DNA of 64,000 bases from Mustelus asterias (GCF_964213995.1 NC_135817.1:53072001-53136000); one strand, 5' to 3'; shown: positions 2,031-64,000, numbered from the stretch's first letter. Notes: generated by a model not told the origin, from the sequence alone. Program-made: numbers and translations.

Positions 2031-3498
2031 ATCTTAGCAGGGGCGGAGGAGTGGGGGGGCGTGGGGGGTGCGCAATGGAAATCCTAGTCGGGGATGGGGC
2101 ACGGCTCATTTCCAACCTCGTGAAGAATCATGATTGAAGCACTCTTGGTTACAATGCACTACTGTTGTAATGTGCAGGACCGCATCAGGCTCCACTTTGA
2201 TGTCCATAATCTCTGTTGTCCAAAGAATCTTCACATGTGTGCGACACTGCAGTCCTGTGAATAACTTGGAACTAGATCTCTCCCATTGCATGAAACAAGG
2301 GGGAGACAAGTTCAGGAAAAATCAATATCAATTGGAAGGAAACTTTTTGCTAATCGAGAGAGCTCAGTAGGTGAGAACCATTTTGCTCAATATTTTAACT
2401 CTTGGGGGGCACAAACCAGGAATATTTAATTCTTGCTGGCTGAGTTATCTGTTTATTTCAACAGTAATTTCAAACAGTGAGCTTGATATGTTTCTCAGAT
2501 CACTCTGAAAAAAGATTGTTTTGTTCTGTCTTGCTTGTGAAATTGTCGGATGAATCATGATTTCAGTGTTTATTAAAGCAATAACAAGTCAGCAAGGATT
2601 GACTCCAGATGCCAATAAATGTTTACATGCAGTGAAAGGATTCTCCATGCATTCTTCGGTATTGTGCTTTGTTATGGTCAAGCAGCAGCTTAGAAAAAGA
2701 GGGAATCAACAGAGTGATACATCAGTGAGCTGTATGGAAATATATGGGTTTCTGACAATCTTTTCATTTAAGATTTCTGCATGTAGTTCTTGTAGAATAA
2801 AATGTGAATTTGATCACAATTAATTCTTTCATGCAAGCATATATATGTACAAAGAACAAAAATAGGCCATTCGGCCCCTCAAGTCTGTTCTGCCATTTCA
2901 TAAGATCATAACTGATTTGATATTGATCTCATATCCGAACCTACCTCCCCCCCCCCCCCCCGATAACCTCTCACCCTCTTGTTTGCCAAGAATCTATCTG
3001 CCTCTGCCTTATTGGATCAATGTCAAATCAATGATGATCTTATGAAATGGCAGAACAGACTTGAGGGGCCGAATGGCCTATTTTTGTTCTTTGTTCATAT
3101 ATATGCTTGTATGAAAGACTTAATTGTAACCAAATGCACATTTTATTCTACAAGGACTACATGCAGAAATCGTAAATGAAAAAATTGTCAGAAACCCATG
3201 TATTTCCATGCCCATGCAGGTCATTCTCCGGTCTCGCTGCTGTTAATGGAGATTTGGCTGAGCATCAAATTCCCCACCCTCGCTGGCAGCGGTAGCAGGG
3301 CAAACGAGACCAGAGAATTATAGCCAGAGTCTTTGAATATTTTTAAGGTGGGATTCCAGCTGGAAGGGTCAGTGCAATTCAATTTGTAATGCACCCACAC
3401 TTGGAAATCCTTTTCGAGCCTGGGGAGATTCTCATTGAATTCTCCCACACTTAGAATTTTTTTTTGGAACGGGGACCTAAAGGTGACCATTAACAACC

Positions 3499-6912: not shown

Positions 6913-7290
6913 GCATGTGTGCTGCCCAAAGACATGTCCAGGTACAGGACGGCCCCCTGGTCAGAGCAGAAGGATACCATATAACCATTTGGTGTAATGT
7001 GTCCGGATACTCAGGTTCCACACAGCAGAACTTTGAGTGGTCCATCTATCTGCCTTCTGCACCTGAAAGACAAATCCAGATAGTCAGCACGAATGATCCC
7101 GACTACCCTTATGCTGTGTATGGAAGCAGAGTACGGAATAAGGAGGTCTACGTTGAGAGGATTGATGGAGACTCAGCGCTGTTACACATTACCAACCTGC
7201 AACTGGCAGATACAGGGGAATATGAATGCCACACTCCTAACACAGAGTCAACCTACTGGGGATCCTACAACGCCAAGGGGAATCTGACCG
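6913..7290 (+). CDS. IGSF3: Internal coding exon (first V-set Ig domain) of an IGSF3-like / EWI-family Ig superfamily gene
   Basis: Translation (G)MCAAQRHVQVQDGPLVRAEGYHITIWCNVSGYSG...NFEWSIYLPSAPERQIQIVST...LLHITNLQLADTGEYECHTP...GSYNAKGNLT resembles IGSF3 domain 1 (C...W...DxGxYxC). Acceptor tttatctttcAG at 6911-6912, donor GTAAGT at 7291. Length 378 nt, phase 1 at both ends. IGSF8/CD101 paralogy not formally excluded. Confidence 0.88.
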
Positions 7291-8185: not shown

Positions 8186-8507
8186 ATAGAATCACAGAAA
8201 TCCTACAGTGCAGAAGGAGGCCATTCGGCCCATTCAGTCTGCACCAATAACAATCTCACCCAGGCCCTATCCTTGTAATCCCACATATTTACCCCTCCTA
8301 ATCCCTCCAGACTACTCATCCCGGGACACTAAGGGGCAATTTAGCATGGCCAATGCAGCTAACCCGCACATCTTTGGATTGTGGGAGGAAATCCACACAG
8401 ACACGGGGAGAACGTGCATACACCACACAGACAGTGACCCAAGCCGAGAATCGAACCCAGGTCCCTGGAGCTGTGAGGCAGCAATGCTAACCACTGTGCC
8501 ACCGTGC
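8186..8507 (-). mobile_element. HE1-like V-SINE
   Basis: Reverse complement of the same consensus. Confidence 0.88.
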
Positions 8508-9165
8508 CTCTTCCCTAAGGTACCAAGAACTATGATGCCTAAGCAGCTGCAAATGCCTTTGCAATTCCAGCTGGTATGGTGGAACCAGGGGGAGAACCAA
8601 ATGAACTGTGACTTTGGGGCCTGCCATTCCAGCAAAACCTCATGATAAAGGAAGAATTTCAGGAGGCCTAGGACTTTATACGCTTGTAGGATTAGTGCAA
8701 GCGGACTTATTCCCAACTTTGCTATTCCATCTCCTCGCATGTACACACTAAAACAAGATGGCGATTCCTGTGTGGTCTGCACAGCAAGGCATCACCCATA
8801 GATATCTGAATTTTGTATTTGGTATTGGACAATTGGCATAGTACTCTGGTTTATGAGGAACTTTAACATCCATTACAAGTGAATGCTCTGGATTACTAAA
8901 TCTCTCCTGAGCCACTGTGATGTTCAGCATGATTCGAGAAATGGTGGAGATGTAAAGATCACATCTGGTTGTTCAACAAACCTGTCCAAACAGTTATGAT
9001 GTCTTGTATATTACCATGTAAACACTTCTCACTCCACCCGAGAGGCATGCAATCCCCTGTGAGAGAGACCACAATGTGGAGATGCCGGCGTTGGACTGGG
9101 GTGAACACAGTAAGAGTTTTAACAACACCAGGTTAAAGTCCAACAGGTTTATTTGGTAGCAAATA

Positions 9166-9202
9166 CCATTAGCTTTCGGACCGCTGCTCCTTTGTCAGAT
9201 GG
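9166..9202 (-). ncRNA. Mirror copy of the minimal hammerhead motif (left arm)
   Basis: Reverse complement ccatCTGACAAaggagcagcggtccGAAAgcTAatgg. Same G8->A change, plus one helix II mismatch. Confidence 0.65.
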
Positions 9203-11875
9203 AGTGGAAATGTGCACTCAAACAGGGCACAGAGACACAAAAATCAAGTTACAGAATACTGATTAGAATGCGAATCCCTACAGCCAGCCAGATCTTAAAG
9301 ATACAGACAATGTGGGTGAAGGGAGCATTAAGCACAGGTTAAAAAGATGTGTATTGTCTCCAGACAGGACAGCCTGCAAGTCCAGGAGGCAAGCTGTGCG
9401 GGTTACTGATAATGTGACATAAATCCAACATCCCGGTTTAGGCCGTCCTCATGTGTGCGGAACTTGGCTATCAGTTTCGGCTCAGCAACTCTGTGCTGTT
9501 GTGTGTCGTGAAGGCCGCCTTGGAGAACACTTACCTGAAGATCAGAGGCTGAATGCCCGTGACTGCTGAAGTGCTCCCCCACAGGAAGAGAACAGTCTTG
9601 CCTGGTGATTGTCGAGCGGTGTTTATTCATCCGTTGTCATAGCGTCTGCATGGTTTCCCCAATGTACCATGCCTCGGGACATACTTTCCTGCAGCGTATC
9701 AGGTAGACAACGTTGGCCGAGTTGCAAGAGTAGGTACCGTGTACCTGGTAGATGGTGTTCTCACGTGAGATGATGGCATCCATGTCGATGATCCAGCACG
9801 TCTTGCAGAGGTTGCTGTGGCAGGGTTATGTGGTGTCGTGGTCACTGTTCTCCTGAAGGCTGGGTAGTTTGCTGCGGACAATGGTCTGTTTGAGGTTGCG
9901 CGGTTGTTTGAAGGCAAGAAGTGGGGGTGTGGCGATGGCCTTGGCGAGATGTTCGTCTTCATCAATGACATGTTGAAGGCTCCGGAGGAGATGCCGTAGC
10001 TTCTCCACTCCGGGGAAGTACTGGACGACGAAGGGTACTCTGTCCACCGTGTCCCGTGTTTGTCTTCTGAGGAGGTCGGTGCGGTTTTTCGCTGTGGTGC
10101 GTCGGAACTGCTGATCGATGAGTCGAGCGCCATATCCTGTTCTTATGAGGGCATCTTTCAGCGTCTGGAGGTGTCTGTTGCGATCCTCCTCATCCGAGCA
10201 GATCCTGTGTATTTGGAGGGCTTGTCCGTAGGGGATGGCTTCTTTAACATGTTTAGGGTGGAAGCTGGAGAAGTGGAGCATCATGAGGTTATCCGTAGGC
10301 TTGCGGTACAGTGAGGTGCTGAGGTGACCGTCCTTAATGGAGACGCGTGTGTCCAAGAATGCAACCGATTCTGGAGAGTAGTCTATGGTGAGTCTGATGG
10401 TGGGATGGAACTTGTTGATGTCATCATAGAGTTGTTTCAGTGATTGTTCACCATGAGTCCAAAGGAAGAAAATATCATCGATGTATCTAGTGTATAGCAT
10501 CGGTTGAAGGTCCTGTGCGGTGAAGAAGTCTTGTTCGAACAAGACTTCTTCACCGCACAGGACCTTCAACCAATGCTATACACTAGATACATCGATGATA
10601 TTTTCTTCCTTTGGACTCATGGTGAACAATCACTGAAACAACTATATGATGACATCAACAAGTTCCATCCCACCATCAGACTCACCATGGACGACTCTCC
10701 GGAATCGGTTGCATTCTTGGACACACGCATCTCCATTAAGGACGGTCACCTCAGCACCTCACTGTACCGCAAGCCCACGGATAACCTCACGATGCTCCAC
10801 TTCTCCAGCTTCCACCTTAAATACGTTAAAGAAGCCATCCCCTACGGACAAGCCCTCCGAATACACAGGATCTGCTCGGATGAGGAGGATCACAACAGAC
10901 ACCTCCAGACGCTGAAAGATGCCCTCATAAGAACAGGATATGGCGCTCGACTCATCGATCAACAGTTCCGACGCGCCACAGCGAAAAACCGCACCGACCT
11001 CCTCAGAAGACAAACACGGGACACGGTGGACAGAGTACCCTTCGTCGTCCAGTACTTCCCCGGAGCGGAGAAGCTACGGCATCTCCTCTGGAGCCTTCAA
11101 CATGTCATTGATGAAGACGAACATCTCGCCAAGGCCATTCCCACACCCCCACTTCTTGCCTTCAAACAACCGCGCAACCTCAAACAGACCATTGTCCGCA
11201 GCAAACTACCCAGCCTTCAGGAGAACAGTGACCACGACACCACATAACCCTGCTACAGCAACCTCTGCAAGACGTGCCGGATCATCGACACGGATGTCAT
11301 CATCTCACGTGAGAACACCATCTACCAGGTACCTACTCTTGCAACTCGGCCAATGTTGTCTACCTGATACGCTGCAGGAAAGGATGTCCCGAGGCATGGT
11401 ACACTGGGGAAACCATGCAGACGCTACGACAACGGATGAATGAACACCGCTCGACAATCACCAGGCAAGACTGTTCTCTTCCTGTGGGGGAGCACTTCAG
11501 CAGTCACGGGCATTCAGCCTCTGATCTTCAGGTAAGGTTTCTCCAAGGCGGCCTTCACGACACACGACAGCGCAAAGTCGCTGAGCAGAAACTGATAGCC
11601 AAGTTCCGCACACAACAAGTGTCACGTGAGGACGGCCTAAACCGGGATGTTGGATTTATGTCACATTATCAGTAACCCCCACAGCTTGCCTCCTGGACTT
11701 GCAGGCTGTCCTGTCTGGAGACAATACACATCTCTTTAACCTGTGCTTAATGCTCCCTCCACCCACATTGTCTGTATCTTTAAGATCTGGCTGGTTGTAG
11801 GGATTCTCATTCCAATCAGTATTCTGTAACTTGATTTTTGTGTCTCTGTGCCCTGTTTGAGAGCACATTTCCACT

Positions 11876-11912
11876 CCATCTGACAAAGGAGCAGCGCTCC
11901 GAAAGCTAATGG
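11876..11912 (+). ncRNA. Minimal type I hammerhead ribozyme motif of the PLE (G8->A variant)
   Basis: ccat-CTGACAA-a-ggagc(agc)gctcc-GAAA-gc-TA-atgg: helix I, core, helix II, palindromic AGCT in place of helix III. The core reads CUGACAA instead of CUGANGA. Confidence 0.7.
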
Positions 11913-11971
11913 TATTTGCTACCAAATAAACCTGTTGGTCTTTAACCTGGTGTTGTTAAAACTCTTAGAGA

Positions 11972-12160
11972 GACCATAAGACATAGGAGCAGAATTAGGC
12001 CACTCGGACCATTGAGTCTGCTCTGCCATTCAATCATGGCTGATATTTTTCTCATCCCCATTCTCCTGCCTTTTCCCCATAACCCCTGATCCCCTTATTA
12101 ATCAAGAACCTATCTATCTCTGTCTTAAAGACACTCAATGACCTGGCCTCCACAGCCTTC
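11972..12160 (-). mobile_element. CR1 3' UTR fragment abutting the Penelope palindrome
   Basis: cataagacataggagcagaattaggcc...ccattcaatcatggctga. Similar stubs at ~2850-2990, ~22731-22910, ~55850-56000. Confidence 0.78.
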
Positions 12161-13438
12161 TAAAGCTAGGTTTTTAAAAATCAGGTGAGTCAAAAGAATA
12201 AAATATTGAAGATACCTCTCCACCCCCCCCTCCTTCCCCACTTCGAGCAGATCAAAACTAGTCTGGCAGAGAACTCTGGCCAGATTATCGTGATAAAGTA
12301 CCTCCTCCCTGTCATTTCCACCCCAGCCATAAACAGACCCACCTCTTGCTGCAAGGAAGTTAGTGAATCAGCATTCACTGCACTAGCTGTTAGCCTGTTT
12401 CAGAGGTTATTATTCTCTGAGGAAAGAATCACCTTCTGACATTTAACATAGTTTGAGCCTCACTTAACTTGAAACTGCAATTCTTTTTTGGTCCTTCCTA
12501 ACCTATTTAGTTGAAACATACTGTCAATGCAAACGCAGTCTAGTTCTTTTATTGTCAAATAACCTTCAATTAGATCACCCCTCAGTCTGTGTCTCTCTCG
12601 AGTGTCGAGAAATCAAGCTTTTTCCAGCTTACTTCGGTAGCTAAGATACTTTAAAGTGGGAATTAATCACGTGACCTTCTTCTGCACCTTGTTTACAGCC
12701 TTATCATCACTCACCCTTTGAGGAGATCAATGGAGACCTAATCACTAGTATTTTAATGGAAACTTAATTAAAGTCTCACATAAGGATAAAATAGTATGTT
12801 TTGCAGCGTACTGTCCTGTAAATATACCATAGCATCCTGTTCTCCCCAGTTATTTCTTCATGGTTGCGTTCAAGAAACTTCAGTGATTTTTAAAATTTGT
12901 TTATGGGAATGGGCATCGCTGTCTGGGCAAGCATTTATTGCCCATCCCAGAGGGCATTTTAAGAGTCAACCACATTGCACTGGATCTGGAGTCGCATGCA
13001 AGTCAAACCAGGTAAGGATGGCACAGTAGACAATGTCCTTGCACCCAAAAGAACAGCCTCTAATGAAATAATGGAGGTAATTTTCCGACCTCACCGTGCC
13101 TGGTGCAGATCTGGAAAATAGTGTGCAGGCCTAAAACACGGCTTTGTGTCCGGTGCCAAACAGTTTGCAATTGTCCCAGTCCCTTTCTAATGGCACAAAC
13201 CGCAAAATAGCAATTAAACATGCAAAGCCCGTTCGACTCCGGATTCCCCCAGCTCCCAGGATCTTCCAACCTGCAGGCAAGATCAGTGAGAACCACTACC
13301 AGTCTCCATTAGCAGAGACCAGGCATGAAGGACATGCTGGGGGGCTCAGAGGCCACTGAAGCCCTCGGGTGGTTGGGGACATGGCTGGGAAGTGCTCACC
13401 TGGCACCCTGGCAGTGCCAGTTAAGCACTGTCTATGTG

Positions 13439-13667
13439 ATGATGTGGAGATGCCGGCGTTGGACTGGGGTGAACACAGTAAGAAGTTTAACAACACCAGG
13501 TTAAAGTCCAACAGGTTTATTTGGTAGCAAAAGCCACACAAGCTTTCGGAGCTCTAAGCCCCTTCTTCAGGTGAGACTGTAGAAGGGGCTTAGAGCTCCG
13601 AAAGCTTGTGTGGCTTTTGCTACCAAATAAACCTGTTGGACTTTAACCTGGTGTTGTTAAACTTCTT
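13439..13667. mobile_element. Miniature palindromic Penelope-like insertion (3' terminus/pLTR only)
   Basis: Same terminal sequence as 9074-9160. 92-bp perfect inverted arms 13475-13566 / 13581-13672. 12-bp TSD ACTGTCTATGTG at 13427-13438 and 13668-13679. Confidence 0.9.
13537..13573 (-). ncRNA. Minimal type I hammerhead ribozyme with intact core
   Basis: Reverse complement cac-CTGAAGA-a-ggggc(ttaga)gctcc-GAAA-gc-TT-gtg. Canonical CUGANGA and GAAA boxes. Confidence 0.75.
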
Positions 13668-14224
13668 ACTGTCTATGTGCCCAGGGCTGTGCCAAGGGGG
13701 TGGGGCCTGAATCGGGGTGGAGCCTGAGTGGGGGCTATGATGGAGGGGAGGGCTGTGATGTGGGGGGGTGGGGATGTGATTGGGGGGGGGGGGTGTGCAG
13801 GGAGGAGTCTGTGCAGAGAAGGGACTATGACAGGAGTCTGTGCAGAGGGGTGTTCCGTTTGGGGGGGGGGTCTGTGTGGGGGTGGGGGAGTGGGCTTTGT
13901 GCAAGGGGGATCGTGCAGGGTTGCAGCCTGAAGGGGGACATCCCAGGAGTCATGATGGGGGCATGTGTCCCGGGTCATGAGAGGGAACCCAATGGGGAAA
14001 AATGCCGCTTATGAGGGGGGGGTCCCCGATATCTGTGGAGGGACGGAGGAGTTCTTCCAGTGCACTGTGAGATCAGGGTGCCCTTCCAAAGTGGCACCTG
14101 ACCACTCTGCAGCCAGGTTCACCGGCATGTTTAGCACCCCCAACTCCCCCCAAACTCAGTGCTCTCCCAAAAAATGTCTTGAGTGTGGAACGATTGTGGT
14201 CCAAACCGCGCCCAATATCTTTCC

Positions 14225-28440: not shown

Positions 28441-31206
28441 CGCCTTGTCATCTGCCTGTCCTTTTGTCTGCCTCAGACCTGTTATGGCAGGCAGCAACCT
28501 GACTCCAGCCCATTCCCGTTGGGTAGCCACGAAAATAGCGTGAGTGATCACTGCCGGCCAGGAGGTGGATTGCAATATCAGGAAACCTTCCTGACTCCCA
28601 ATTTCCCCTCCCAAGATAAAATTCGGCTCTTGGTTTTTTTAAATTACAAATATGACTTGATTCTTTGCTGGGCTCTTGATGCACATTCTCCAAATTAGTT
28701 ACTTAATTCATTTACGGAAATCATGCTGTCAAAAGTATTCTCGCGATTGGGTGTTTTGAATGGAACAACCTGAAGGCCAATTTCATTATGATCTACATTC
28801 TTTACAGTTGCAGGGTACAATTTAGAATGAGGAGCAATAATGCATTGTGCCGAGTGCAGGTTGTCTCAGTCTGGCAGATCCAGGATCTGGCATTCACACT
28901 TGGGAATCATCCAAGATGTGAAGCTTCTGGACTTGAGCCCATCGGAAGCAGCAGTGTAATGTGACTGATGGGGTAAATCAGCAGGAATTCTATCTTGATT
29001 TGTTCCATAGCACCCCCTTGTGTCTGTTCACACAGTGATCACAAGGATGCATGATCCTTGCCTTGGTGATAATGCATACTTCAAACATTTGACCATTTGG
29101 AAGTGAGCTGGAAGGGCATTCCAATTGCAGCACACACATTGTGTTGTCGCCACTTCCAGGTTCACACAAGTGGATGTAAAAACAGGAGATGATGTAGATG
29201 AATGCCTGGCTGGAAAGGTGGTGCAGGGAGTGAGGGGTTTAAATTCCTGGGGCTCTGGGGGAGATGGGCCCTACAAAGGTCGACAGGTCAGGTGGGTGGC
29301 ACCTAAACAGATTTCCTTGCTGGGCATTTTGTTAGTCCTATTGAGGAGAGGATTTAAGCTAACTTGACCAGGATGTGACCCCAGAGAGGATTACCAATGT
29401 GCACAGATTACTGGGAGAGACAGATAGCATTAGAGCAGGAAATCATAAGTTCAGAGTAAGGGAGAATGTGATACACCCTAAATTAAGGCTGGCTCGGTTG
29501 TTTCAGAGGGCCACTGAGAGTCAATCACATTGCTGAGGATCTGGAGTCACCTGTAGGCCAGACCAAGCAGATAGCAGATTTCCTTCCCAAAAGAGCATTA
29601 GTGAACCAGATGGGTTTTTGCAACAATGGTTATGGAAACCACACCTACCCCCCCTCCCCCTGCCCCAATAGAAACCACTTGGCAGTGCCCGGGCATTGAT
29701 CCATGGCAATAGGTCATGACCCTCTTCCCTCTTTGGGCTGTACTTACCTGTGCACCCTTAGCAGGGATCATTCGCCAGGTTCCTGTTTCACAAAACCTGT
29801 CACAAACCCTGTCAACGTGACGTCATGCCAGCGGTGGAAGGAGAGTTTGCGGGAGATCCCTACACGGGGGATTGATACACTGTATATTGTAATGTATGCT
29901 AATGAGGTTCCCGACCTTTCATGTACTTGTAATACAATGGCATGCCGTGAATGCTCATTAGTGTAAAATATTATTTTAACACAGTCTTACCTTCAGTTAA
30001 CAGTGCATGAGAATCTCATTGACCTGGTTCACATGTGTTCAGAAGTGGCATGCAGCATTCTCGAAATCTGCAGCAGAAGTGGGGGGAGAAGGAGAATAGC
30101 AGCTTGCATGGAGCTTTAGGACCGACAAGGGGGAGTCATGCTGAGAAAGGTTGTGAAGTGGGGTCAGGGGCACGGAGGTGAGAATGAGGGATTGGGGGAG
30201 GGCAGAGGTTGAGATTGGGGACATAGAGTGAGAAGAGCCTGGCATCCTGGGTGTGGTGGGGTGCGAAAGTCAGCTAACGTGAGAAAATGAGGGATCTCAA
30301 AGATGGTGTCAGTGCTGTCCATCTTGGGGTTGGCTGCCAGCGCCCTTTCGGTTCCGGTTACGACTTCAGGAACAACACACCATTAACAAAGTCCTGGCCA
30401 TGACATTGTGGCTTTAACAGAAACTTGACTGGGTATTAAATATTCCTGGGTACAAGGAGTTCAGGAAAGGGGAGGGGCGGTAGTCTTGATTAAGAACAAC
30501 CTTGCCCTTCCGGCCGAGAGAGGAGGTCCATTTTGCCATTTAAGATGTGGTACATTTCTCATTGTAGTCTGTAGGCCCCCAACCAGTGGGAAGGATGTAG
30601 AGGAACAAATTTGCAAGGAAATTACAGATGGGTGCAAGCATTATATAGTAGATATAATGGTGGATTTTGAATATCCAAATATAGACTGGGTTAGTAGTAC
30701 TGTGAAGGGCAGTGAGGGATAGGATTTATTAGAGTGTGTTCAGGAAAATTTCCTGCGGCAGTATGTTTTCAGTCCATCGAGAAAGAAGCTTGACTGGGTT
30801 CTTGGGAATGAGGTGAACCAAGTGGATCAAGTAAATGTCAGCGGAGGAACATTTGGGGGACAATGATCGTTGCATCATAAGGTTTAGATTGGTTATGGGC
30901 AAGGAACAATGCAGAGTACAAACAATCAACTGGGGGAAAGCCAATTTCAAAGGTTAAGAATGGATCTTACCGGATACGTTGGAAACAAAGGACAGCAGGC
31001 AAAACCCGAACTGAATAATGAGCTACCTTTAAAGAGACGGTTCAGGTACAATCAAGGTGTATTCCCATGAAGGGGAAAGGTAGGGCAAACAAATCCACAG
31101 CCCTCGGATGATGAAAGAGATAGAGATTAAGATGACGCAGAGGAAGTGCGTTTATGATGGAGGTCAGGTGCATAATACAACCGAGAACCAGGCTGGATGT
31201 AAAAGG

Positions 31207-31514
31207 TGATGCGCGATTAAATCACTCGGGAGGCTGGATCGTACCCGGGAAATAAAGGCTTTTATTAGTAACAAGAATGGAGCATACTATATAACAATAC
31301 AATCCCAGACTAAAGGGTCACCAGGCAGTGCAGTGACCTTTATACTCCTACAGGTAGGCGGAGCCAACCGGAGTGTACCACAGAACAATACCAACAGGTA
31401 GACCACCCCAACCCTAACCCCAACAGTGACAACAGTAACATATGTACAAGTACCCATAGTGCTAACCATCTATGGTTCAGTACCCATAGTGGTAACCATC
31501 TATGGTTCACCACA
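31207..31514 (-). repeat. 3' LTR of element A (308 bp)
   Basis: Matches the 5' LTR except for 3 substitutions that I counted and one fewer 30-bp unit. Confidence 0.95.
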
Positions 31515-31528
31515 TTCACCCCTCCTTT
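31515..31528 (-). promoter_or_regulatory. Polypurine tract of element A
   Basis: Sense AAAGGAGGGGTGAA directly before the 3' LTR. Identical tract at 60492-60505 in element B. Confidence 0.85.
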
Positions 31529-31577
31529 AAAAACAAAGGCCAGTGGGGCAAAAAAACAGTACGAACTGTCCATATAT

Positions 31578-34500
31578 TCACAAGTTCAGTCGTATCGGAG
31601 GGCCGCACCGTCTCTGCGACCTCCTCAACACTGGCGGTAGCGCCGGTTCTGGTGACCGTGATGACCCTCTCTCCAAGGCGGTGTCCAGTGACTCCTCCAG
31701 TTCCTCACGGACAGGTGGACCACGAGGTGGCGACAATCTCCTGGACTCGAGCACGCCCCGAGGTGGCGACAATCTCCTGGACTCAGGCAAGCTGTACATG
31801 GGAGTAAGAAGATTAAGTGGTGGTCCCGATACTGCCCGCGCCGTGTCAGGAGGAGAGATAAAGGTCAAGGGGTCCCTAACCAGGGGTGCGGGAGCGACAG
31901 GGGTTTCCAAGTCCCCTGCAGGCGCCAGATCTCGAATAGAGACCGTGTCCTCTGGCCCGTCAGGATATGCCACATAGGCATATTGAGGGTTGACGTGGAG
32001 GAGATGGACCTGTTCAACCAAAGGGTCGGACTTGCGGGTCCTAACATGCCGCCGCAGGAGGACAGGTCCTGAGTACATCAACCAAGACGGCAGTGAGGTC
32101 CCAGAGGAAGACTTCCTAGGGAAGGTAAACATCCGCTCATGTGGGGTAGCGTTGGTTGCCGTACACAGGAGGGACCGGATTGAATGGAGCGCATCAGAAA
32201 GTACCTCTAGCCAACGGGAGACTGGAAGACCCTTAGACCTCAACGCCAGTAAGACAGCCTTCCAGACTGTAGCATTTTCTCTTTCAACCTGCCCGTTACC
32301 CCTGGGGTTGTAACTCGTAGCTCTACTTGAGGCAATCCCTTTTGAGAGCAGGTATTGCCTCAAGTCGTCACTCATAAACGATGAGCCCCTATCACTGTGG
32401 ATATAGCTGGGGTAACCAAACAGGGTGAAAAGATCCCGCAATGCTTTGATAACCGTGGCAGTAGTCATGTCTGAACAGGGAATGGCAAAAGGGAATCGGG
32501 AGTACTCGTCAATCATGTTGAGGAAGTACACATCCCGATCTGTCGAAGGAAGGGGGCCCTTGAAATCCACACTGTCTTTCAAAAGGGCGAGTGGCCTTAA
32601 TGAGGTGTGCCCTGTCATTTCGGTAGAAGTGCGGCTTGCATTCAGCACATACTGGCAGCTTCGGGTTATTGACCTGACATCCTCTACTGCGTAGGGTAGA
32701 TTCCGGGCCTTTACAAAATGGAAGAGCCGAGTGATCCCCGGATGGCAGAGATCATGGCAGAGATCATCAGAGGGCCTATAACCGATCCTCCTGCACCCTG
32801 GCACATGTTCCATGCGACAGGGCGTCTGAGGGCTCATTGAGCTTCCCCGGACGGTACATGATATCATAGTTGTAGGTGGAGAGTTCGATTCTCCACCTCA
32901 AGATTTTATCATTTTTGATCTTACCCCGTAACGTGTTGTTGAACATGAACGCCACGGACCGCTGGTCCGTGAGCAGGGTGAATCGTTTTACAGCCAAGTA
33001 ATGGCGCCAATGCCGGACAGCCTCCACAATGGCCTGAGCCTCTTTTTCCACCGCGGAGTGCCGAATTTCAGGGCCTTGGAGGGTGCAAGAGAAAAAGGCG
33101 TCGGGCCTGCCCACCTGGTTAAGTGTGGCGGCCAGGGCAAAATCAGATGCATCACTCTCCACCTGAAAGGGGATGGACTCATCGACAGCGTGCATCGTGG
33201 CTTTCGCGATGTCAGCTTTTATCCCTTCAAAGGCTAAGCGAGCCTCTGCTGCCAGGGGAAAAGAGGTAGACTTTATGAGCGGACGGGCTTTGTCCGCATA
33301 ATTGGGAACCCACTGTGCGTAATACGAAAAGAAGCCTAAGCATCTTCTCAGTGCTTTGATGCTAGTGGGTAGGGGAAGTTGAAGGAGGGGACGCATACGG
33401 TCTGGATCAGGGCCAAGGACCCCGTTTTCCACCACGTATCCGAGAATTGCTAGGCGGCGCTTGCTAAATACATACTTCTCCCTGTTATAGGTCAGATTCA
33501 GGCGAGACGCAGTGCGTAAAAACTTTAGGAGGTTGGCATCGTGGTCCTGCTGGTCATGGCCGCAGATAGTGACGTTGTCCAGGTACGGGAAGGTAGCCCG
33601 TAGCCCGTTTTGGTCCACCATTCGGTCCATTGCACGCTGGAAGACCGAGACCCCATTCGTGACGCTAAAGGGGACCCTTAAGAAGTGGTAGAGACGACCA
33701 TCCGCCTCAAAGGCCATATATTTTCGGTCCTCTGGGCGAATGGGGAGCTGGTGGTAAGCTGACTTCAAGTCAATGGTGGAGAACACCCGGTACTGCGCAA
33801 TCTGGTTGACCATGTCAGATATGCGTGGGAGAGGATACGCGTCCAGCTGCGTGTATCTATTAATGGTCTGACTATAGTCTATGACCATCCGGGGTTTGTC
33901 TCCAGTTTTAACCACCACGACTTGTGCTCTCCATGGGCTAGTGCTAGGTTGAATGATCCCTTCCCTGAGGAGCCGCTGAACCTCAGATCGAATAAAGATC
34001 CGATCCTCAGCGCTGTAACGCCTGCTCTTAGTTGCAATGGGCTTGCAGCCTGGCACGAGATTCTCGAATAAAGATGGCGGGGTGATTCTGAGTGTCGAGA
34101 GACTGCACGTGGAGCGCGGTGGGCAATTTGGAGGCTGCTGTTCTCCCACTGAAAGTGGAGGGAGTGGCCCATCGTACTGCAGGGTCACACTCCTCAGGTG
34201 GACCATAAAGTCTAGTCCCAGGAGTAGCGGAGCACAAAGGTGCGGTAACACGAGGAGCCTGAAGTTCTCATAAACTGTGCCCCGCACCGTTAGGTTGACC
34301 ACGCAGCTCCCAAGAACGGTAACAGATCGAGACCTCGACGCCATAGAAATTGTCTGTCTGACAGTCTGTACTCGGAGACCGCACCGTTTCACAGTGTCAG
34401 GATGAATGAAACTCTCTGTGCTCCCGCTGTCAAACAGACAATGTATTAGGTGTCCATTTACCTCTATGCCCATCATGGACTTGTCGAATCTGTGAGGCTT

Positions 34501-34713
34501 GGCCTGGTCCAGGATGATTGATGCCACCGTTGGGTCTCGAGTGCAACTGCAGGCAGCTGAGATGGTTGATGATGATGACCCCTGCTGGTCGTCTGCGGTC
34601 GGTGCCGACCAAAATGGCTGCACCCATGGATCGCACGTGGTCGGTGGCGCTGAAAGTGGTGGCACCCGCAGGTCGCACGTGTCTTGCGTCGTCGTCGTCA
34701 GGAATGGCGGTGC
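31578..34713 (-). pseudogene. pol: Pol of element A (PR-RT-RNaseH-IN), disrupted by frameshifts
   Basis: LFDSGS protease, IDLKSAYHQ / YLDN RT, SDASD RNase H, VDFKGP / HSDRG / VERENA integrase. Same frame as gag. Frameshifts near 32750-32780 (with a 12-bp duplication TGGCAGAGATCA) and near 32575-32650. Confidence 0.9.
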
Positions 34714-35583
34714 TCATGAATCGCACGTGGTGGAAGACCTCGATGAAGCTGGAGACAAGGTGACAGATTCTGGAGAATCACACGCCGCACTGCGAGGCTT
34801 CGAGGGTGGTTTAGCTCTGCACACTTTGGCATAGTGCCCTTTCTTCCCACACACGGAGCAAAATCCCGTTCTGGCTGGACATCGCTGCCGAGGGTGTTTC
34901 GCCAATCCACAGAAATAGCACCGCGGGCCTCCTGGAGCTGCCGCCGTCGTCAGGTCCGAGGTTGAAAGCACGATCGCGCAGTTTCTCGGAGCCGCTGGGT
35001 AGAGTTGAGTCGGTGGCTGTACTTGCCACGATGTTCCCACGTGGTCGGTGGGGTAAGTTTCCAGACTTCTGGAGGCCGTTTCCATCGTGTCAGCCAATTC
35101 CACCGTCTTAGCTAGGTCTAAGTTACCTTGCTCTAGCAGCCGCAGGCGAATATAGGATGAGCCGATTCCCGCCACGAACGCATCTCGAATCAAATCGTTA
35201 GTATACTGGGTCGCCGACACTGGCTTGCAATTGCAGGCTCTGGCTAGCTGCTGAAGTTCGCGCAGGTACTGTCCCGTCGTTTCACCAGGCTGCCGCCGTC
35301 GAGTGGCTAGAAGGTGTCGAGCATGAATCTCGTTTGGCGGTTTGTTGTACAGTTTCTTAAGTAGTTCGATGGCCCCTTTGTAGTCTTGGGCATCATGGAT
35401 TGATGAATATACAGTGTCGCTTACCCTTGCGTGGAGGACCCGCAGTCTATCGGCATCATTTTGAATGGCTGTTGAGGCATCGATATAGTCTTGAAAACAC
35501 TTCAACCAATGGTCGAAAGTGTTCGACGCTCCAGCTGCACGCGGATCTAAGGTAAGCCGATCGGGTTTTAACATTTGCTCCAT
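34714..35583 (-). CDS. gag: Gag of element A (two zinc knuckles)
   Basis: CYFCGLAKHPRQRC and CSVCGKKGHYAKVC knuckles. Ends at an in-frame TGA where element B has W (TCDSW). Confidence 0.9.
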   Translation of the reverse strand: MEQMLKPDRLTLDPRAAGASNTFDHWLKCFQDYIDASTAIQNDADRLRVLHARVSDTVYSSIHDAQDYKGAIELLKKLYNKPPNEIHARHLLATRRRQPGETTGQYLRELQQLARACNCKPVSATQYTNDLIRDAFVAGIGSSYIRLRLLEQGNLDLAKTVELADTMETASRSLETYPTDHVGTSWQVQPPTQLYPAAPRNCAIVLSTSDLTTAAAPGGPRCYFCGLAKHPRQRCPARTGFCSVCGKKGHYAKVCRAKPPSKPRSAACDSPESVTLSPASSRSSTTCDS

Positions 35584-35602
35584 GGTTTTTTTTTAACCAA
35601 AA

Positions 35603-35617
35603 TTGTTACTAATAAAA
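35603..35617 (-). promoter_or_regulatory. Non-tRNA primer-binding-site position, complementary to the element's own LTR
   Basis: Sense TTTTATTAGTAACAA begins 1 nt after the 5' LTR end. It is the exact reverse complement of LTR 35672-35686. No TGG start. Confidence 0.75.
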
Positions 35618-35618
35618 T

Positions 35619-35956
35619 TGATGCGCGATTAAATCACTCGGGAGGCTGGATCGTACCCGGGAAATAAAGGCTTTTATTAGTAACAAGAATGGAGCATACT
35701 ATATAACAATACAATCCCAGACTAAAGGGTCACCAGGCAGTGCAGTGACCTTTATACTCCTACAGGTAGGCAGAGCCAACCGGAGTGTACCACAGAACAA
35801 TACCAACAGGTAGAACACCCCAACCCTAACCCCAACAGTAACAACAGTAACATATGTACAAGTACCCATAGTGCTAACCATCTATGGTTCAGTACCCATA
35901 GTGGTAACCATCTATGGTTCAGTACCCATAGTGGTAACCATCTATGGTTCACCACA
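35619..35956 (-). repeat. 5' LTR of element A (338 bp)
   Basis: Minus strand TGTGGTGAAC...GCGCATCA. TATAAA at 35751-35756(-), AATAAA at 35673-35678(-). Three copies of a 30-bp unit. Confidence 0.95.
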
Positions 35957-37642
35957 AAAGGTTTGGAGGGAAAGTGAAAAAGCCAATAAGATGAGACTGG
36001 CAGCCAACATAAATTGAAATCCAAGTCATCTCAAGGCATATCGATAGTAAAATGGTGGGAAAGGAGGAATGGGGTCAATTAAAGACCAAAAAGGGAATTG
36101 ACAAATGGAGGCAGGGGCATAGCTGAGGTATTAAATGAATACTTAGCATCTCTCTTTGCCAAGAAAGAAGCTGCTGCAAAGCTCATGGTGAAAGAGGAGG
36201 TAACTCAGCCCCTGGAAGGGTTTAAATGGATAAAGAGGAATAGATAGGCTGTCTGTACTTTGATTGTTGATGAGGCACCAGGACTGGTTGAAATGCATCC
36301 AAGGATAATGAGGGAAGTAAGAGTGGAAATTGCCATAATCTTTCAACTTTAGTTCAACTCCAGTGTGGTGCCAAATGACTGGCGAATTGTCGATGTTACA
36401 TTCTTGTTCAAACAAGGGTTTAAAGATAAGCCCAGCAACTACAGGCCAGTGAGTTTCACTGCCAATCAGTGGGGAAGCTTCTAGAAATGATAATTTGAGA
36501 TAAAATTAATAACCACATAGATGTATGCAGGTTAATTAAAGAAAGCCAACATGGATTTGTTCATGGCAAATCATGTTGAACAAACTTGCTGGAGTTTTTG
36601 ATGAGGTAAGAGAGAGGATTGATGAGGGTGATGCTGTTAATGTGATGTACTGGGACTTCCAAAAGGTATTTGATAAGGTCCCACACAACAGATTTTTGAG
36701 CAAAGTTATAACTCGTGAGATAAAGAATCAAATAGTGACGTGGACACAGAATTGTTGAGAGACTAGAGTTAGTGGATACTTTTCAGACTGGAGGAAAGTT
36801 TGTAGTGAAATTCCAGCGGTCAGAGTTAGGATCCTTGCTCTTCCTGATATATAATAATGACCTAGACCTCGATGTATAGGGTACAATTTCAAAGTTTGTG
36901 GATGATATGAAACTTGAAAGCATTGTGAGCTATGAATGTAGAACTTCAAAAGGACATGGACAAATTGATGGAATGGGCAGACAAGTAGCAGATAAAATTT
37001 AATGCAGAGAACTGTAAAGTGATTCAGTTTGGTAAGAAGAATAGAGAGATAATACAAAGTAAAGGGTCCGATTCTAAAGGGAGTACAGGAGCAGAGGGAT
37101 CTGGCTGTTTATGTGCCTAAATTATTGAAGGTAGCAGGACATGTCAAGAGCCCTGTTAGTAAATCACATGGCATCCTCAGCTTTATCAATAGAGGAATAG
37201 AGAACAAAAGCAGGGACGTTATCTTAAACTTGTACACAACATTGGTTCAGCCTCAACTGAAGTATTGTGTCTAGTTCTGGATGCCAGACTTTAAGAGAAG
37301 TGAAGGTTTTAGAGACAGTACAGAAAAGATTCACAAAATAACCATTCTAGGGATGAGGAACTTCAATTATGAAGATAGAGTGGAAAGGTTGAGACTGTTT
37401 GACACTGCTTCCTTGGAGAGGCGAAGATTGAGAGGAGATTATATAGCGGTATTCAAAATCATGGGTGGTCTGGACAGAGTGGATAGGGAAAGAATGTTCC
37501 CCTTGATGGAAGGATCAAGAAGATGAGGGTACAGACTTGAGGCAAGTGAAGCAACAGAGACATGAGGAGAAACTTTTTCACACAGCGAGTAATTAAGATC
37601 TGGAATACACTGCCTGAGAGTATAGTGGTGGCATGTTCAGTT

Positions 37643-60555: not shown

Positions 60556-63500
60556 CTACAAGTCCAGACGGTCTGGAGGACCGCACCGTCGCTGTGACCT
60601 CCTCAACACCGGTTGTGACACCGGAGCAGGTGCTTGCGGTGGCGTTCTCTCCAAAACAACGTCCGGCTGTCCCCTCGAGGACTCACGGGCCGGTTGACCC
60701 TGGTGAAGTGGTGGTGCAGGGGATCCCGGTACCTTCTGTGGTGGCGCCGATCTCCGAGTCTCAGGCAAGCTGTACATGGGAGTATAACTGTTATGCACTG
60801 GTCCCGGTGCTGACCGCGCCACGTCCGGGGAAGAAATAAGTGATAGGGGATTCGTGACAGGGGGTATGGGAGCGACAGGAGTTGCTACGTCCCCTGCGGG
60901 CGCCAGGTCTCGGATCGAGACTGTGTCCTCTCGCCCGTCAGGATATGCCACATAGGCATACTGAGGGTTGGCGTGGAGGAGGTGGACCGGTTCGACCAAG
61001 GGGTCGGACTTGCGGGCCCTTACATGTCGCCGCAGAAGGACGGGTCCTGGGTACGTCAACCAGGCTGGTAAAGATATCCCCGAGGACGACTTCCGAGGGA
61101 ATGAGAACATCCTCTCGTGGGGAGTAGCATTGGTTGCCGTACACAGGAGGGAGCGAATGGAGTGGAGCGCATTTGGAAGGACCTCCTGCCAATGGGAGAC
61201 TGGAAGGCCTTTGGACTTCAGCGCCAGTAGGACAGCCTTCCAGACTGTAGCATTCTCTCTCTCCACCTGTCCGTTGCCCCTAGGGTTGTAACTCGTGGTT
61301 CTACTAGAGGCAATCCCGTATGAGAGCAGGAATTGCCTCAAGTCGTTACTCATGAACGACGAGCCCCTGTCGCTATGTATATAGCAGGGATACCCGAACA
61401 GGGTAAAAAGATCACGGAATGCCTTGATCACCGTGGCAGTCGACGTGTCCGCACAGGGGACAACAAACGGGAACCGGGAGTACTCATCTATGATGTTAAG
61501 AAAGTACACGTTCCGGTCTGTTGAGGGAAGGGGGCCCTTAAAATCCACACTCAGCCTCTCGAAGGGGCGAGTGGCCTTGACCAATTGTGCCCGGTCAGGT
61601 CGGTAAAAGTGCGGTTTGCATTCCGCGCAAATCCGACAGCTTCTTGTTACTGACCTGACATCCTCCACCGAGTAGGGCAGGTTGCGGGCTTTGATGAAGT
61701 GGTAGAGCCGAGTGACCCCTGGATGGCACAGATCATTATGGAGGGCGTTCAAGCGGTCCTCCTGCATGGTAGCGCATGTTCCGCGCGAGAGGGCATCCGA
61801 GGGCTCATTGAGTTTCCCTGGACGATACATAATATCGTAATTATAGGTGGAGAGCTCAATTCTCCACCGCAAGATCTTGTCATTCTTGATCTTGCCCCTC
61901 TGCGTATTATTGAACATAAACGCCACGGATCGCTGATCCGTGATCAGGGTGAACCGCTTTCCCACCAGGTAATGGCGCCAGTGTCTGACGGCCTCCACAA
62001 TGGCCTGGGCCTCCTTCTCCACCGCTGAATGCCGAATTTCGGGACCTTGAAGGGTGCAGGAAAAAAACGCGACGGGCCTGCTTGCCTGGTTCAGTGTGGC
62101 GGCCAGGGCGAAATCAGATGCATCACTTTCCACCTGAAAAGGGATGGATTCATCCACCGCGTGCATCGTGGCTTTCGCAATGTCGCTTTTCAAAGCCTTG
62201 AAGGCCAATTGGGCCTCTGGCGTGAGCGGAAAAGTTGTGGACTTGATGAGCGGACGGGCTTTGTCCGCGTAGTTGGGGACCCACTGCGCATAATAAGAGA
62301 AGAAGCCGAGGCATCTCCTTAGTGCTTTTGCGCTAGCGGGCAAGGGAAGTTCAGTAAGGGGGCGCATACGGTCTGGATCAGGGCCAATGACCCCGTTTTC
62401 CACCACGTATTCCAGGATAGCTAACCTGCGCGTACGGAATACACACTTCTCCCTGTTATAGGTCAGATTCAGGCGAGACGCAGTGCGCAAAAGGTTCTGG
62501 AGGTTTGTGTCATGGTCCTGCTGGTCATGGCCGCAGATGGTGACATTATCCAGGTACGGGAAGGTAGCCCGCAACCCGTTCTGGTCCACCATTCGGTCCA
62601 TAGCACGCTGGAAGACCGAGACCCCATTGGTGACACCAAATGGAACCCTAAGAAACTGATACAGACGACCATCCGCCTCAAAAGCCGTGTATTGTCGGTC
62701 CTCTGGGCGGATGGGGAGTTGGTGGTAGGCGGACTTAAGGTCTATGGTGGAGAACACCCGGTACTGCGCAATCTGATTGACCATATCAGATATGCGCGGG
62801 AGAGGATACGCATCCAGCTGCGTATAACGATTAATGGTCTGACTGTAGTCGATGACCATCCGGGGTTTGTTCCCGCTTTTAACCACCACGACCTGTGCTC
62901 TCCACGGACTAACGCTGGACTGTATGATCCCTTCTTTGAGGAGCCGCTGAACCTCAGATCTGATGAAGATCCGGTCTTCAGCCCTGTAACGCCTACTTTT
63001 AGTAGCGATGGGCTTGCAGCCTGGTACCAGATTCTTAAATAGAGAGGGTGTGGTGATCTTTAGTGTGGAAAGATTGCATGCGGGGCGCTTTGGACGATTT
63101 GGAGGCTGCGGCTGATTCCCTACTGCCAGCGAAGGGAGTGGCCCACCGTACTGTAGGATCACACTCTTCATGTGGACCATAAAGTTTAGTCCGAGGAGAA
63201 TTGGCGCGCAAAGATGCGGCAACACAAGGAGCCTGTATCGCTCGTAAATTGTGCCCTGCACCTCCAGAGTTACCACACAATGTCCTTGGATCGGTACAGA
63301 CCGGGACCGTGATGCCATAGAAATTGTCTGTTTGGCAGGTAGAACCCGGAGTCCACACCTCTTTGCAGTGTCAGGGTGAATAAAACTCTCGGTGCTCCCA
63401 CTGTCAAACAGACAATACACAGTACGACCATTTACCTTGATGGTCATCATTGAACAGTCAAGTCTGTGATGCTTAGCCTGGTCCAGGGTGATCGACGCCA

Positions 63501-63987
63501 CCGTTGGCCCTTGGACGTCACTGCAGGCAGCCGAGGTTGATGCTGAGGACCCCTGCTGGTCGCTCCTGGTCGTCGTCGACCAAGATGGCCGCCCCCATGA
63601 ATCGCACGTGGGTGAGGGCGCCAAGCGTAGCGACTCCTGGTGGTCATCCTCCTCCTCCGCCAGCCACAATGGCGTCGTCCTGGGCTCGCACGTGGTCGGA
63701 CCTCGTGGGTACTGCAACGCCGATGGAGATTGTCTCCGTTCTGGAGGGTCACAGGCTGCACTGCCGTTCTTGGGCTTCGATCTGCAGACTTTCGCGTAGT
63801 GCCCCTTTTTACCGCACTGACTGCAGATCACCGTTTTAGCTGGACACTGTTGCCGTGGATGCTTGGCTCCTCCGCAAAAATAGCACCGCGGGCCGCCTGG
63901 GGCTGCCGCCGTCGTCGGGTCGATATGGGAGCGCGAGCCCGTGGGGCGAGGAGGGATTTGTGACTGCTCCTGCCACGTTGTCTCCAC
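60556..63987 (-). CDS. pol: Intact single-frame Gag-Pol (C-terminal 1143 aa; start outside window)
   Basis: Two CCHC knuckles, LFDSGS, IDLKSAYHQ, PFG, YLDN, SDASD...EKE...TDQ...DALSR, HHCC (HNDLCH...CRIC) and D-D-E integrase, with no stops. Confidence 0.93.
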   Translation of the reverse strand: METTWQEQSQIPPRPTGSRSHIDPTTAAAPGGPRCYFCGGAKHPRQQCPAKTVICSQCGKKGHYAKVCRSKPKNGSAACDPPERRQSPSALQYPRGPTTCEPRTTPLWLAEEEDDHQESLRLAPSPTCDSWGRPSWSTTTRSDQQGSSASTSAACSDVQGPTVASITLDQAKHHRLDCSMMTIKVNGRTVYCLFDSGSTESFIHPDTAKRCGLRVLPAKQTISMASRSRSVPIQGHCVVTLEVQGTIYERYRLLVLPHLCAPILLGLNFMVHMKSVILQYGGPLPSLAVGNQPQPPNRPKRPACNLSTLKITTPSLFKNLVPGCKPIATKSRRYRAEDRIFIRSEVQRLLKEGIIQSSVSPWRAQVVVVKSGNKPRMVIDYSQTINRYTQLDAYPLPRISDMVNQIAQYRVFSTIDLKSAYHQLPIRPEDRQYTAFEADGRLYQFLRVPFGVTNGVSVFQRAMDRMVDQNGLRATFPYLDNVTICGHDQQDHDTNLQNLLRTASRLNLTYNREKCVFRTRRLAILEYVVENGVIGPDPDRMRPLTELPLPASAKALRRCLGFFSYYAQWVPNYADKARPLIKSTTFPLTPEAQLAFKALKSDIAKATMHAVDESIPFQVESDASDFALAATLNQASRPVAFFSCTLQGPEIRHSAVEKEAQAIVEAVRHWRHYLVGKRFTLITDQRSVAFMFNNTQRGKIKNDKILRWRIELSTYNYDIMYRPGKLNEPSDALSRGTCATMQEDRLNALHNDLCHPGVTRLYHFIKARNLPYSVEDVRSVTRSCRICAECKPHFYRPDRAQLVKATRPFERLSVDFKGPLPSTDRNVYFLNIIDEYSRFPFVVPCADTSTATVIKAFRDLFTLFGYPCYIHSDRGSSFMSNDLRQFLLSYGIASSRTTSYNPRGNGQVERENATVWKAVLLALKSKGLPVSHWQEVLPNALHSIRSLLCTATNATPHERMFSFPRKSSSGISLPAWLTYPGPVLLRRHVRARKSDPLVEPVHLLHANPQYAYVAYPDGREDTVSIRDLAPAGDVATPVAPIPPVTNPLSLISSPDVARSAPGPVHNSYTPMYSLPETRRSAPPQKVPGSPAPPLHQGQPARESSRGQPDVVLERTPPQAPAPVSQPVLRRSQRRCGPPDRLDL

Positions 63988-64000
63988 GTGGTCTTCTGGA

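What the first reader, a model, noticed from the sequence alone, without database searches (positions are those of the whole stretch)
9062..11976. 2.86-kb zero-spacer palindrome made from a Penelope-like retroelement
Seen: arms 9111-10536 (1426 bp) and 10537-11967 (1431 bp) meet at ...TTGTTC|GAACAA with no loop. The length difference equals a 12-nt insertion minus a 7-nt deletion in the right arm. Only the left arm carries the final ~37-nt 3' tail. A candidate 10-bp TSD surrounds the whole unit, so it looks like a single insertion. Known: PLEs often carry inverted partial copies and a short 3' tail, and long perfect palindromes are usually unstable. Inference: two cDNAs (or one fold-back cDNA) were joined at a native self-complementary GTTCGAAC site in the RT coding sequence.
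Basis: partly seen in the sequence, partly recalled or inferred. Interest (0 to 1): 0.75.

Follow-up and report, generated by a model that had tools for sequence, protein, structure and literature searches.

The report
Two-armed Penelope insertion joined at micro-palindrome
This 2.9-kb mirror-image sequence is a real, single insertion of a very abundant Penelope-like jumping gene that normally lands as two head-to-head copies; its missing central gap likely arose because two new DNA copies were joined at an 8-letter self-complementary word of the element, an outcome seen at least 16 more times in this genome at two other such words.

Summary
Confirmed. Arms 9111-10536 and 10537-11967 meet with no spacer and are 96.9% identical (44 substitutions, 2 indels). 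Only the left arm has the 37-nt tail. Contigs of three runs from other organisms hold the empty site with one copy of the 10-bp duplication, so this is one insertion. GTTCGAAC is native to linear copies. Head-to-head pairs are the family's normal product: 107 of 115 pairs have the tail on one arm only. Either arm can be the longer (32 vs 36 of 85), which argues for two cDNAs. Zero-spacer palindromes recur at two other native micro-palindromes (13 of 22 and 3 of 34 hits are full palindromes, five of them 100% identical over 0.6-0.74 kb). A non-palindromic control site gave 0 gap-free hits of 11. Best reading: two target-primed cDNAs joined by annealing or snap-back end joining. A single fold-back is not excluded for this copy, because both arms share a near-private stop codon. 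The layout, including palindromes at the junction, is published (PMC3846280), and this scan met it before on other DNA. What is added is the hotspot count and the junction-level evidence.

The parts
9062..9071 (+). Left copy of the target-site duplication (AGAGAGACCA)
   Evidence: single copy at the empty site in runs X1, X9, X14
9072..9073 (.). Two bases that match neither the usual continuation of the family tail nor the duplication
9074..9110 (-). 37-nt PLE 3' tail, on this arm only
   Evidence: one-sided tail in 107 of 115 pairs
9111..10536 (-). Left arm: 5'-truncated copy (end of RT with the YIDD motif, thumb, Cys linker, GIY-YIG nuclease, 3' terminal repeat)
10533..10540 (.). Native self-complementary octamer GTTCGAAC, shared by both arms: the junction
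10537..11967 (+). Right arm: 5'-truncated copy ending at the family's tail-less end; 7-nt deletion at 11327/11328 and 12-nt insertion at 11615-11626
11245..11247 (+). Premature TAA in the RT-nuclease linker, also present in the left arm (9826-9828, minus strand)
   Evidence: TAA in 2 of 107 other arms that match the motif
11313..11675 (+). Frame holding the GIY-YIG nuclease remnant
   Evidence: Pfam PF01541 E=0.00029, 21.5 bits, below the 22.6 cut-off
11880..11904 (+). Hammerhead-like core (CTGA.GA ... GAAA pattern, recalled) with a G>A change shared by both arms; mirror copy ends at 9198
   Evidence: Motif scan; no Rfam hammerhead match, so motif only
11967..11976 (+). Right copy of the target-site duplication

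Best explanation
It is one insertion of a Penelope-like retroelement made of two front-truncated copies joined head to head at the element's own GTTCGAAC; the two copies were likely reverse-transcribed separately from the two cut target strands and likely joined by annealing or brief snap-back of their free ends at that self-complementary word. SHOWN: one event (empty site, duplication); native octamer; one-sided tail; both arms from the same source lineage; recurrence of the same outcome at other native palindromes. INFERRED: the nuclease nicks both strands about 10 nt apart; each 3'-OH primes a cDNA, one at the tail end and one 37 nt inside it; the two cDNA ends are joined by a microhomology and templated-insertion type of end joining. 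At most sites this leaves unequal arms and a short spacer. At a native palindrome the two ends are complementary to each other, so the product has equal arms and no spacer. The cDNAs need not stop at the same base, because a longer partner could be trimmed. The shared stop codon suggests a defective source RNA moved in trans. Since birth the arms have drifted 3% apart, which would lower cruciform risk.
For: Empty site with one copy of the duplication in 3 of 4 runs laid. Tail on exactly one arm in 107 of 115 pairs; duplication of 9 bp or more in 69 of 92, mode 12-13. The tail-less arm starts further 5' in 36 of 85 units, the tailed arm in 32, and 17 are within 5 nt; for differences over 50 nt it is 24 vs 16. 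A tail-less arm longer than the tailed arm cannot be copied from it, and a tail cannot be copied from a tail-less arm. L252, L259 and L290 show a few bases of snap-back at the 12-bp palindrome followed by a partner arm that begins upstream of the fold point. L259 and L287 share one such junction with the tail on opposite arms and different flanks. Spacers of 8-60 nt match nearby element sequence over 8 nt or more in 20 of 37 cases, against 2.4 in shuffles. Full zero-spacer palindromes: 13 of 22 hits at CAACGTTG and 3 of 34 at TCTCACGTGAGA, each with one tail, its own 9-13-bp duplication and unshared flanks. Control site: 0 of 11 gap-free; 6 of the 11 are centred on the neighbouring native TGCA. 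The cDNA end at GTTCGAAC folds to no hairpin but forms a self-duplex of about -10 kcal/mol. In vitro, an anole PLE nicks and extends both strands and starts at two sites that bound the tail (PMC11167929).
Against: For this symmetric copy the two models give the same product. Both arms share a near-private TAA (2 of 107 other arms) and a rarer CpG allele, which a fold-back copy or later gene conversion would also explain. No unit with arms of clearly different subfamilies was found among 8 candidates checked, and terminal type agrees in 108 of 117 pairs, so two different RNAs are not shown. Microhomology is not the family rule: 59 of 85 junctions have a spacer and only 5 have 3 bp or more of overlap. 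The single gap-free control is weak on its own: one register against nine for an 8-bp palindrome. Two other native palindromes in the long-arm range gave 0 hits. The in vitro paper concerns a Poseidon element, while this one has Neptune/Nematis-type linker cysteines. The joining enzyme is not identified.
Confidence: 0.65

Rival explanations
1. One cDNA (or an antisense RNA, as proposed in 2013) folded back on GTTCGAAC and was copied along its whole length, and the second end was resolved at the tail boundary.
For: Snap-back at native palindromes is visible: 26 of 34 hits at the 12-bp site and 6 of 22 at the 8-bp site show fold-backs under 30 nt, some on solo arms. L013, L012 and L004 show a few folded-back bases at GTTCGAAC itself. 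The arms share a near-private stop. Five young palindromes are 100% identical. PMC3846280 (Discussion) reads junction palindromes as self-priming.
Against: It cannot give the 36 of 85 units whose tail-less arm is the longer, nor L252, L259 and L290. The tail-less end here is the same fixed end as in asymmetric units. An 8-bp palindrome gives no stable intramolecular hairpin. At the site where hairpins form best, snap-backs mostly stop within 30 nt.
Confidence: 0.22
2. The unit was born with longer or unequal arms and a spacer; later a deletion between the two copies of GTTCGAAC (direct repeats of each other across an inverted junction) removed the centre.
For: Geometrically possible for any unit whose arms both passed this site, such as L056 or L058. 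Arms of other units show internal deletions (L028, L029).
Against: Palindromes with 100% identical arms already have no spacer (L275, L278, L283, L285, L289, L299), so the state exists at or just after birth. Such a deletion would move towards a less stable structure (PMC7999016 passages).
Confidence: 0.08
3. Assembly or chimeric-read fold-back artefact, or two separate insertions that met by chance.
For: No read or contig across the centre was shown.
Against: 44 substitutions and 2 indels split between the arms with CpG decay; one duplication around the whole unit and an empty site without either arm; the family's standard one-tail layout.
Confidence: 0.03

Closest known systems
Inverted insertion units of endonuclease-bearing PLEs, e.g. 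Pen2a_Av of Adineta vaga (PMC3846280; passages and whole Discussion read)
   Same: Head-to-head inverted 5'-truncated copy, a tail of about 30-40 bp on one end, 8-10-bp duplication, palindromes at the inverted junction described as abundant.
   Different: There the junction palindromes named are 18-38 bp in the terminal repeat and are read as self-priming on an antisense template. Here both arms are 1.4 kb and meet inside the RT coding sequence, and family counts favour two cDNAs.
General PLE architecture and clades (PMC8557442; passages read)
   Same: 5' truncation, adjacent inverted copy, one-sided tail; C-terminal GIY-YIG with cysteines inside the motif; CX2-5CxxC linker of the Neptune and Nematis clades.
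   Different: The passages seen hold no count of symmetric junctions; 'palindrom' and 'hairpin' have 0 occurrences in its main text.
Poseidon element PAc of the green anole in vitro (PMC11167929; parts 1-2 of 4 read)
   Same: Both strands nicked and extended; two RT start sites that bound the tail; predicted dimer. This is the geometry needed for two arms with one tail.
   Different: Different clade; in the parts read, the joining of two cDNAs and inverted products are not studied.
Synthesis-dependent MMEJ / polymerase theta end joining (PMC9303309; passages read)
   Same: Snap-back on short inverted repeats, nascent microhomology, insertions templated from within about 50 bp.
   Different: Described for nuclease-cut chromosome ends; here applied by inference to two cDNA ends. 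The enzyme was not tested.
L1 twin priming (recalled, not retrieved)
   Same: Both target strands prime a cDNA, giving a head-to-head inversion joined at microhomology.
   Different: In L1 the second primer lands far inside the RNA, so the two parts do not overlap. Here both start 37 nt apart at the 3' end, so the parts are inverted duplicates.

Membership tests
EN+ Penelope-like element | RT domain followed by a C-terminal GIY-YIG nuclease in one ORF | tested here: met
   Longer natural copy L057: RVT_1 E=9.3e-10 above cut-off, then GIY-YIG E=0.045 in a second frame. Window arm GIY-YIG E=0.00029, just under cut-off. No intact single ORF was seen.
EN+ Penelope-like element | [quoted passage not shown] | tested here: met
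   VYLIRCRKGCPEAWY.GET followed by NEH and GEHF in the translations; definition from PMC8557442. The histidine assignment is by eye.
EN+ Penelope-like element | 30-40-bp tail on one end of the insertion | tested here: met
   37 nt at 9074-9110; one-sided in 107 of 115 pairs
EN+ Penelope-like element | Adjacent inverted 5'-truncated copy and target-site duplication | tested here: met
EN+ Penelope-like element | Hammerhead ribozyme in the terminal repeat | tested here: inconclusive
   Core-like motif in 257 of 346 arm ends, changed in both window arms; Rfam gave no hammerhead match; cleavage untested
EN+ Penelope-like element | Direct pseudo-LTR upstream of a full-length ORF | tested here: inconclusive
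   No full-length copy among the loci fetched; the longest pair reaches about 1200 nt upstream of the centre
Neptune (or Nematis) clade | CX2-5CxxC motif in the RT-nuclease linker | tested here: met
   CHSNLCKTC (CX4CxxC) in the left arm and L057; the right arm has CYSNLCKTC by its sequence
Neptune (or Nematis) clade | Placement in the RT phylogeny | not tested
   No reference PLE proteins were fetched
MITE / fold-back DNA transposon that spreads as a hairpin | Copies share the same centre and ends as one amplified unit; terminal inverted repeats reach both ends | tested here: not met
   The centre is unique in the assembly; junctions differ from unit to unit; the tail breaks terminal symmetry

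The most novel reading that the evidence does not exclude
Penelope-like elements integrate by two-ended priming in which the two nascent cDNAs are joined to each other rather than to the target. Native 4-12-bp palindromes of the element are then hotspots that seed zero-spacer palindromes of 1.2-2.9 kb in a vertebrate germ line, and these persist for long periods. This would replace the antisense self-priming reading of PLE junction palindromes and give a natural dated series for testing palindrome instability.
Probability: 0.5. Interest if true: 0.6.

Novelty: new member of a known kind. Interest (0 to 1): 0.38.

Why it matters
How PLEs make their inverted units is still open: PMC8557442 calls these features of the cycle undefined, and PMC11167929 leaves the later steps unvalidated. 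This family supplies roughly 10^5 two-armed units (extrapolated from 19 pairs in 600 kb). Their junctions separate two-cDNA joining from self-priming and point to a testable step: cDNA-to-cDNA end joining with hotspots at native micro-palindromes. The set of zero-spacer palindromes from 100% down to 95% identity also shows that kilobase palindromes without a spacer are born and kept in this genome. The single locus itself is an unusually long but ordinary example.

Tried and rejected
Laying contigs over 8500-12900 was swamped by other family copies and showed no piece across the centre; this is neither support nor refutation. Rfam gave only hairpin-driven miRNA matches below their thresholds and no hammerhead. 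PDB sequence search gave only E about 0.45 matches to group II intron-like RTs. A search for units with arms of different subfamilies failed: 8 candidates flagged proved concordant once aligned properly. The bit-score ranking 'mate is best hit' (17 of 54) is confounded by deletions and age and was not used. The second hit for the GTTYRAAC centre (L246) is not a family copy, and the reversed-pattern control also gave 1. Searches at two other long-arm palindromes gave 0; with only 3 arms per 600 kb reaching those sites this does not show purging. The arm-length correlation (Spearman 0.80) is inflated by 3-kb loci and by query choice, so only the stratified permutation tests were used. Rows dropped before counts: 117 anchor pairs, 2 not resolved, 115 scored; 92 with one tail and a junction gap of at most 60 nt; 85 after removing the window unit and 6 units found by the centre query. 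Five of the 34 hits at the 12-bp site share flanks (one locus duplicated), so there are 30 independent loci. Literature searches found no paper counting PLE junctions at native palindromes or treating this in sharks; most subscription papers are not covered and no supplements were opened.

Full report
OBSERVATION. The repeat finder and a base-level alignment confirm an inverted repeat from 9111 to 11967 centred at 10536|10537 with no spacer: 1426 and 1431 bp, 44 substitutions, a 7-nt deletion and a 12-nt insertion in the right arm. The left arm alone continues for 37 nt (9074-9110) with the family tail. AGAGAGACCA flanks the unit at 9062-9071 and 11967-11976. The arms are 96.9% identical, so the palindrome is gap-free but not perfect. 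Against 89 other long arms, 26 differences are left-derived, 17 right-derived and 1 both; 19 of 44 fall at CpG sites, which are 138 of 1430 positions. That is independent ageing of two real copies, not a folded read. A contig of run X15 matches 8500-9095 exactly and bridges the left junction; no contig across the centre was shown.

ONE INSERTION. Laying contigs on the left flank, runs X1, X9 and X14 (other organisms, three studies, 19-39 differences over 461-472 nt) match to 9071 and continue with the letters found at window 11977 onward. Run X7 ends at 9021. The empty site therefore holds one copy of the decamer and neither arm. The insertion lies downstream of an exon encoding an Ig V-set domain (6913-7290, splice donor at 7291), probably in an intron. 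The host looks like a cartilaginous fish; this is recalled from genome size and repeat content and was not tested.

THE ELEMENT. Each arm encodes the end of an RT (YIDD), a CX4CxxC linker and a GIY-YIG nuclease with internal cysteines. A longer natural copy gives RVT_1 at E=9e-10. By the definitions in PMC8557442 (passages) this is an endonuclease-bearing Penelope-like element of Neptune or Nematis type; no tree was built. Linear copies read through GTTCGAAC, so the octamer is native. Sixty evenly spaced 10-kb stretches held 55 arm ends (19 pairs, 17 unpaired) and 20,330 of 600,000 bp of family sequence, which extrapolates to roughly 10^5 pairs.

THE FAMILY'S NORMAL PRODUCT. Among 117 head-to-head pairs from searched and evenly spaced loci plus the window, 115 were resolved. 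The tail is on exactly one arm in 107, on none in 7 and on both in 1. Among 92 clean units the duplication is 9 bp or longer in 69, with a mode of 12-13. After removing 7 units selected by the centre query, 85 remain: 59 have a spacer, 9 are blunt, 12 overlap by 1-2 bp and 5 by 3-6 bp. The tailed arm reaches further 5' in 32, the tail-less arm in 36, and 17 are within 5 nt (3.4 expected by permutation). The excess holds among short units (15 of 36 vs 6.9) and is weaker among longer ones (within 20 nt: 5 of 43 vs 1.5, p=0.013). Spacers of 8-60 nt match nearby element sequence over at least 8 nt in 20 of 37 cases against 2.4 in shuffles; a few of these may be mis-set arm ends. The two arms have the same terminal type in 108 of 117 pairs, and no clearly mixed unit was found.

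MICRO-PALINDROME HOTSPOTS. Exact pattern searches for gap-free symmetric junctions gave 1 family hit at GTTCGAAC (this locus), 22 at CAACGTTG, 34 at TCTCACGTGAGA, and 0 at CATCGATG and TTGTACAA. All 56 hits were fetched and classified. At CAACGTTG 13 are full palindromes with 597-689-bp arms, 95-100% identical, each with one tail, its own duplication and unshared flanks; 3 are partial and 6 are short fold-backs. At TCTCACGTGAGA 3 are full (all 100%, 661-742-bp arms), 5 partial and 26 short fold-backs, five of which are one duplicated locus. A non-palindromic control about 25 nt away, allowing 0-8 nt of gap, gave 11 hits: none gap-free, 6 centred on the neighbouring native TGCA, 4 on a CC(A/T)GG word and 1 asymmetric. 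Exact matching undercounts old copies, so all counts are lower bounds. The window's unit is the longest gap-free one found at the five sites tested.

MECHANISM. The fixed tail-less end and one-sided tail fit the two RT start sites, and the nicking and extension of both strands, reported in vitro for an anole PLE (PMC11167929, parts 1-2 of 4). If one arm were copied from the other, the tailed arm would always be the longer; it is not. L252, L259 and L290 show a snap-back of a few bases at the 12-bp palindrome and then a partner arm that starts upstream of the fold point, which the first cDNA never contained. L259 and L287 repeat one junction with the tail on opposite arms, and L288, L292 and L293 repeat another. 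These resemble snap-back synthesis-dependent end joining (PMC9303309, passages). At an 8-bp palindrome a cDNA end forms no stable hairpin but pairs with a second copy of itself. I therefore infer two target-primed cDNAs joined to each other, with native palindromes giving symmetric, gap-free products (0.65). Against this, both window arms share a TAA in the linker found in 2 of 107 other arms. That shows one source, either a defective RNA moved in trans or a first-strand error copied by fold-back (0.22) or later conversion. Late loss of a centre between the two octamers is possible (0.08), but 100%-identical young palindromes already lack a spacer.

WHAT IS KNOWN. PMC3846280 (passages and whole Discussion) describes inverted PLE units with a one-sided tail and duplication, notes abundant palindromes at the inverted junction, and reads them as self-priming on an antisense template. 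PMC8557442 (passages) gives the same layout as typical. PMC7999016 (passages) states that long, similar, spacer-less arms are the most unstable. Searches found no count of junctions at native palindromes; the library lacks most subscription papers and no supplements were read. Earlier notes of this scan (consulted after my reading was formed) report similar units in other genomes, including one of 2.5 kb.

VERDICT. Real, single, correctly described, and a long example of a known kind. The added value is the family evidence that native micro-palindromes are junction hotspots and that two cDNAs are joined. Interest 0.38.

Noticed in passing
window 13430-13680: A second, short unit of the same family: 96-nt arms with a 5-6-nt spacer, tail on the left arm and a 12-bp duplication (ACTGTCTATGTG).
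   Followed up: yes
family positions just upstream of the hammerhead-like core (window about 11860-11880 and mirror): 5' ends of short arms pile up in a 20-nt zone at the front edge of the hammerhead-like core: 40 arm ends, against 1-9 per 10 nt nearby. This may be an RNA 5' end or an RT stop shared by both cDNAs.
   Followed up: partly
window 2734-3209: Inverted repeat with 200-nt arms (93%) and a 76-nt spacer, not of this family. It seems to duplicate host flank together with a LINE/SINE-like 3' end (the class is recalled, not tested).
   Followed up: no
window 11968-12161: The target site is the very end of an older, abundant repeat fragment (CR1-like 3' end, recalled), already present at the empty site in other organisms.
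   Followed up: partly
L275, L278, L283, L285, L289, L299: Zero-spacer palindromes with 100% identical arms of 613-742 bp, i.e. very young insertions; good candidates for polymorphism and instability tests.
   Followed up: partly
L272, L278, L283, L259, L287, L289, L300: A young subfamily whose arms are about 76 nt longer because of an extra segment near the end of the ORF.
   Followed up: no
L296, L297, L298, L301, L302: One insertion with identical flanks on five small contigs: a tandem or segmental duplication, or unmerged haplotypes.
   Followed up: no
L111 (junction), L051, L082, L277: Junction spacers made of repeated short copies of nearby sequence (up to five rounds), a sign of iterative templated synthesis.
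   Followed up: partly
L181:1188-1870: Two two-armed units side by side bounded by the same 12-bp duplication.
   Followed up: no
window 31200-35990 and 60740-64000: Two diverged copies (76-82%) of a GC-rich element of at least 3 kb, the first flanked by 98% identical direct repeats (31202 and 35614), LTR- or DIRS-like; not examined.
   Followed up: no
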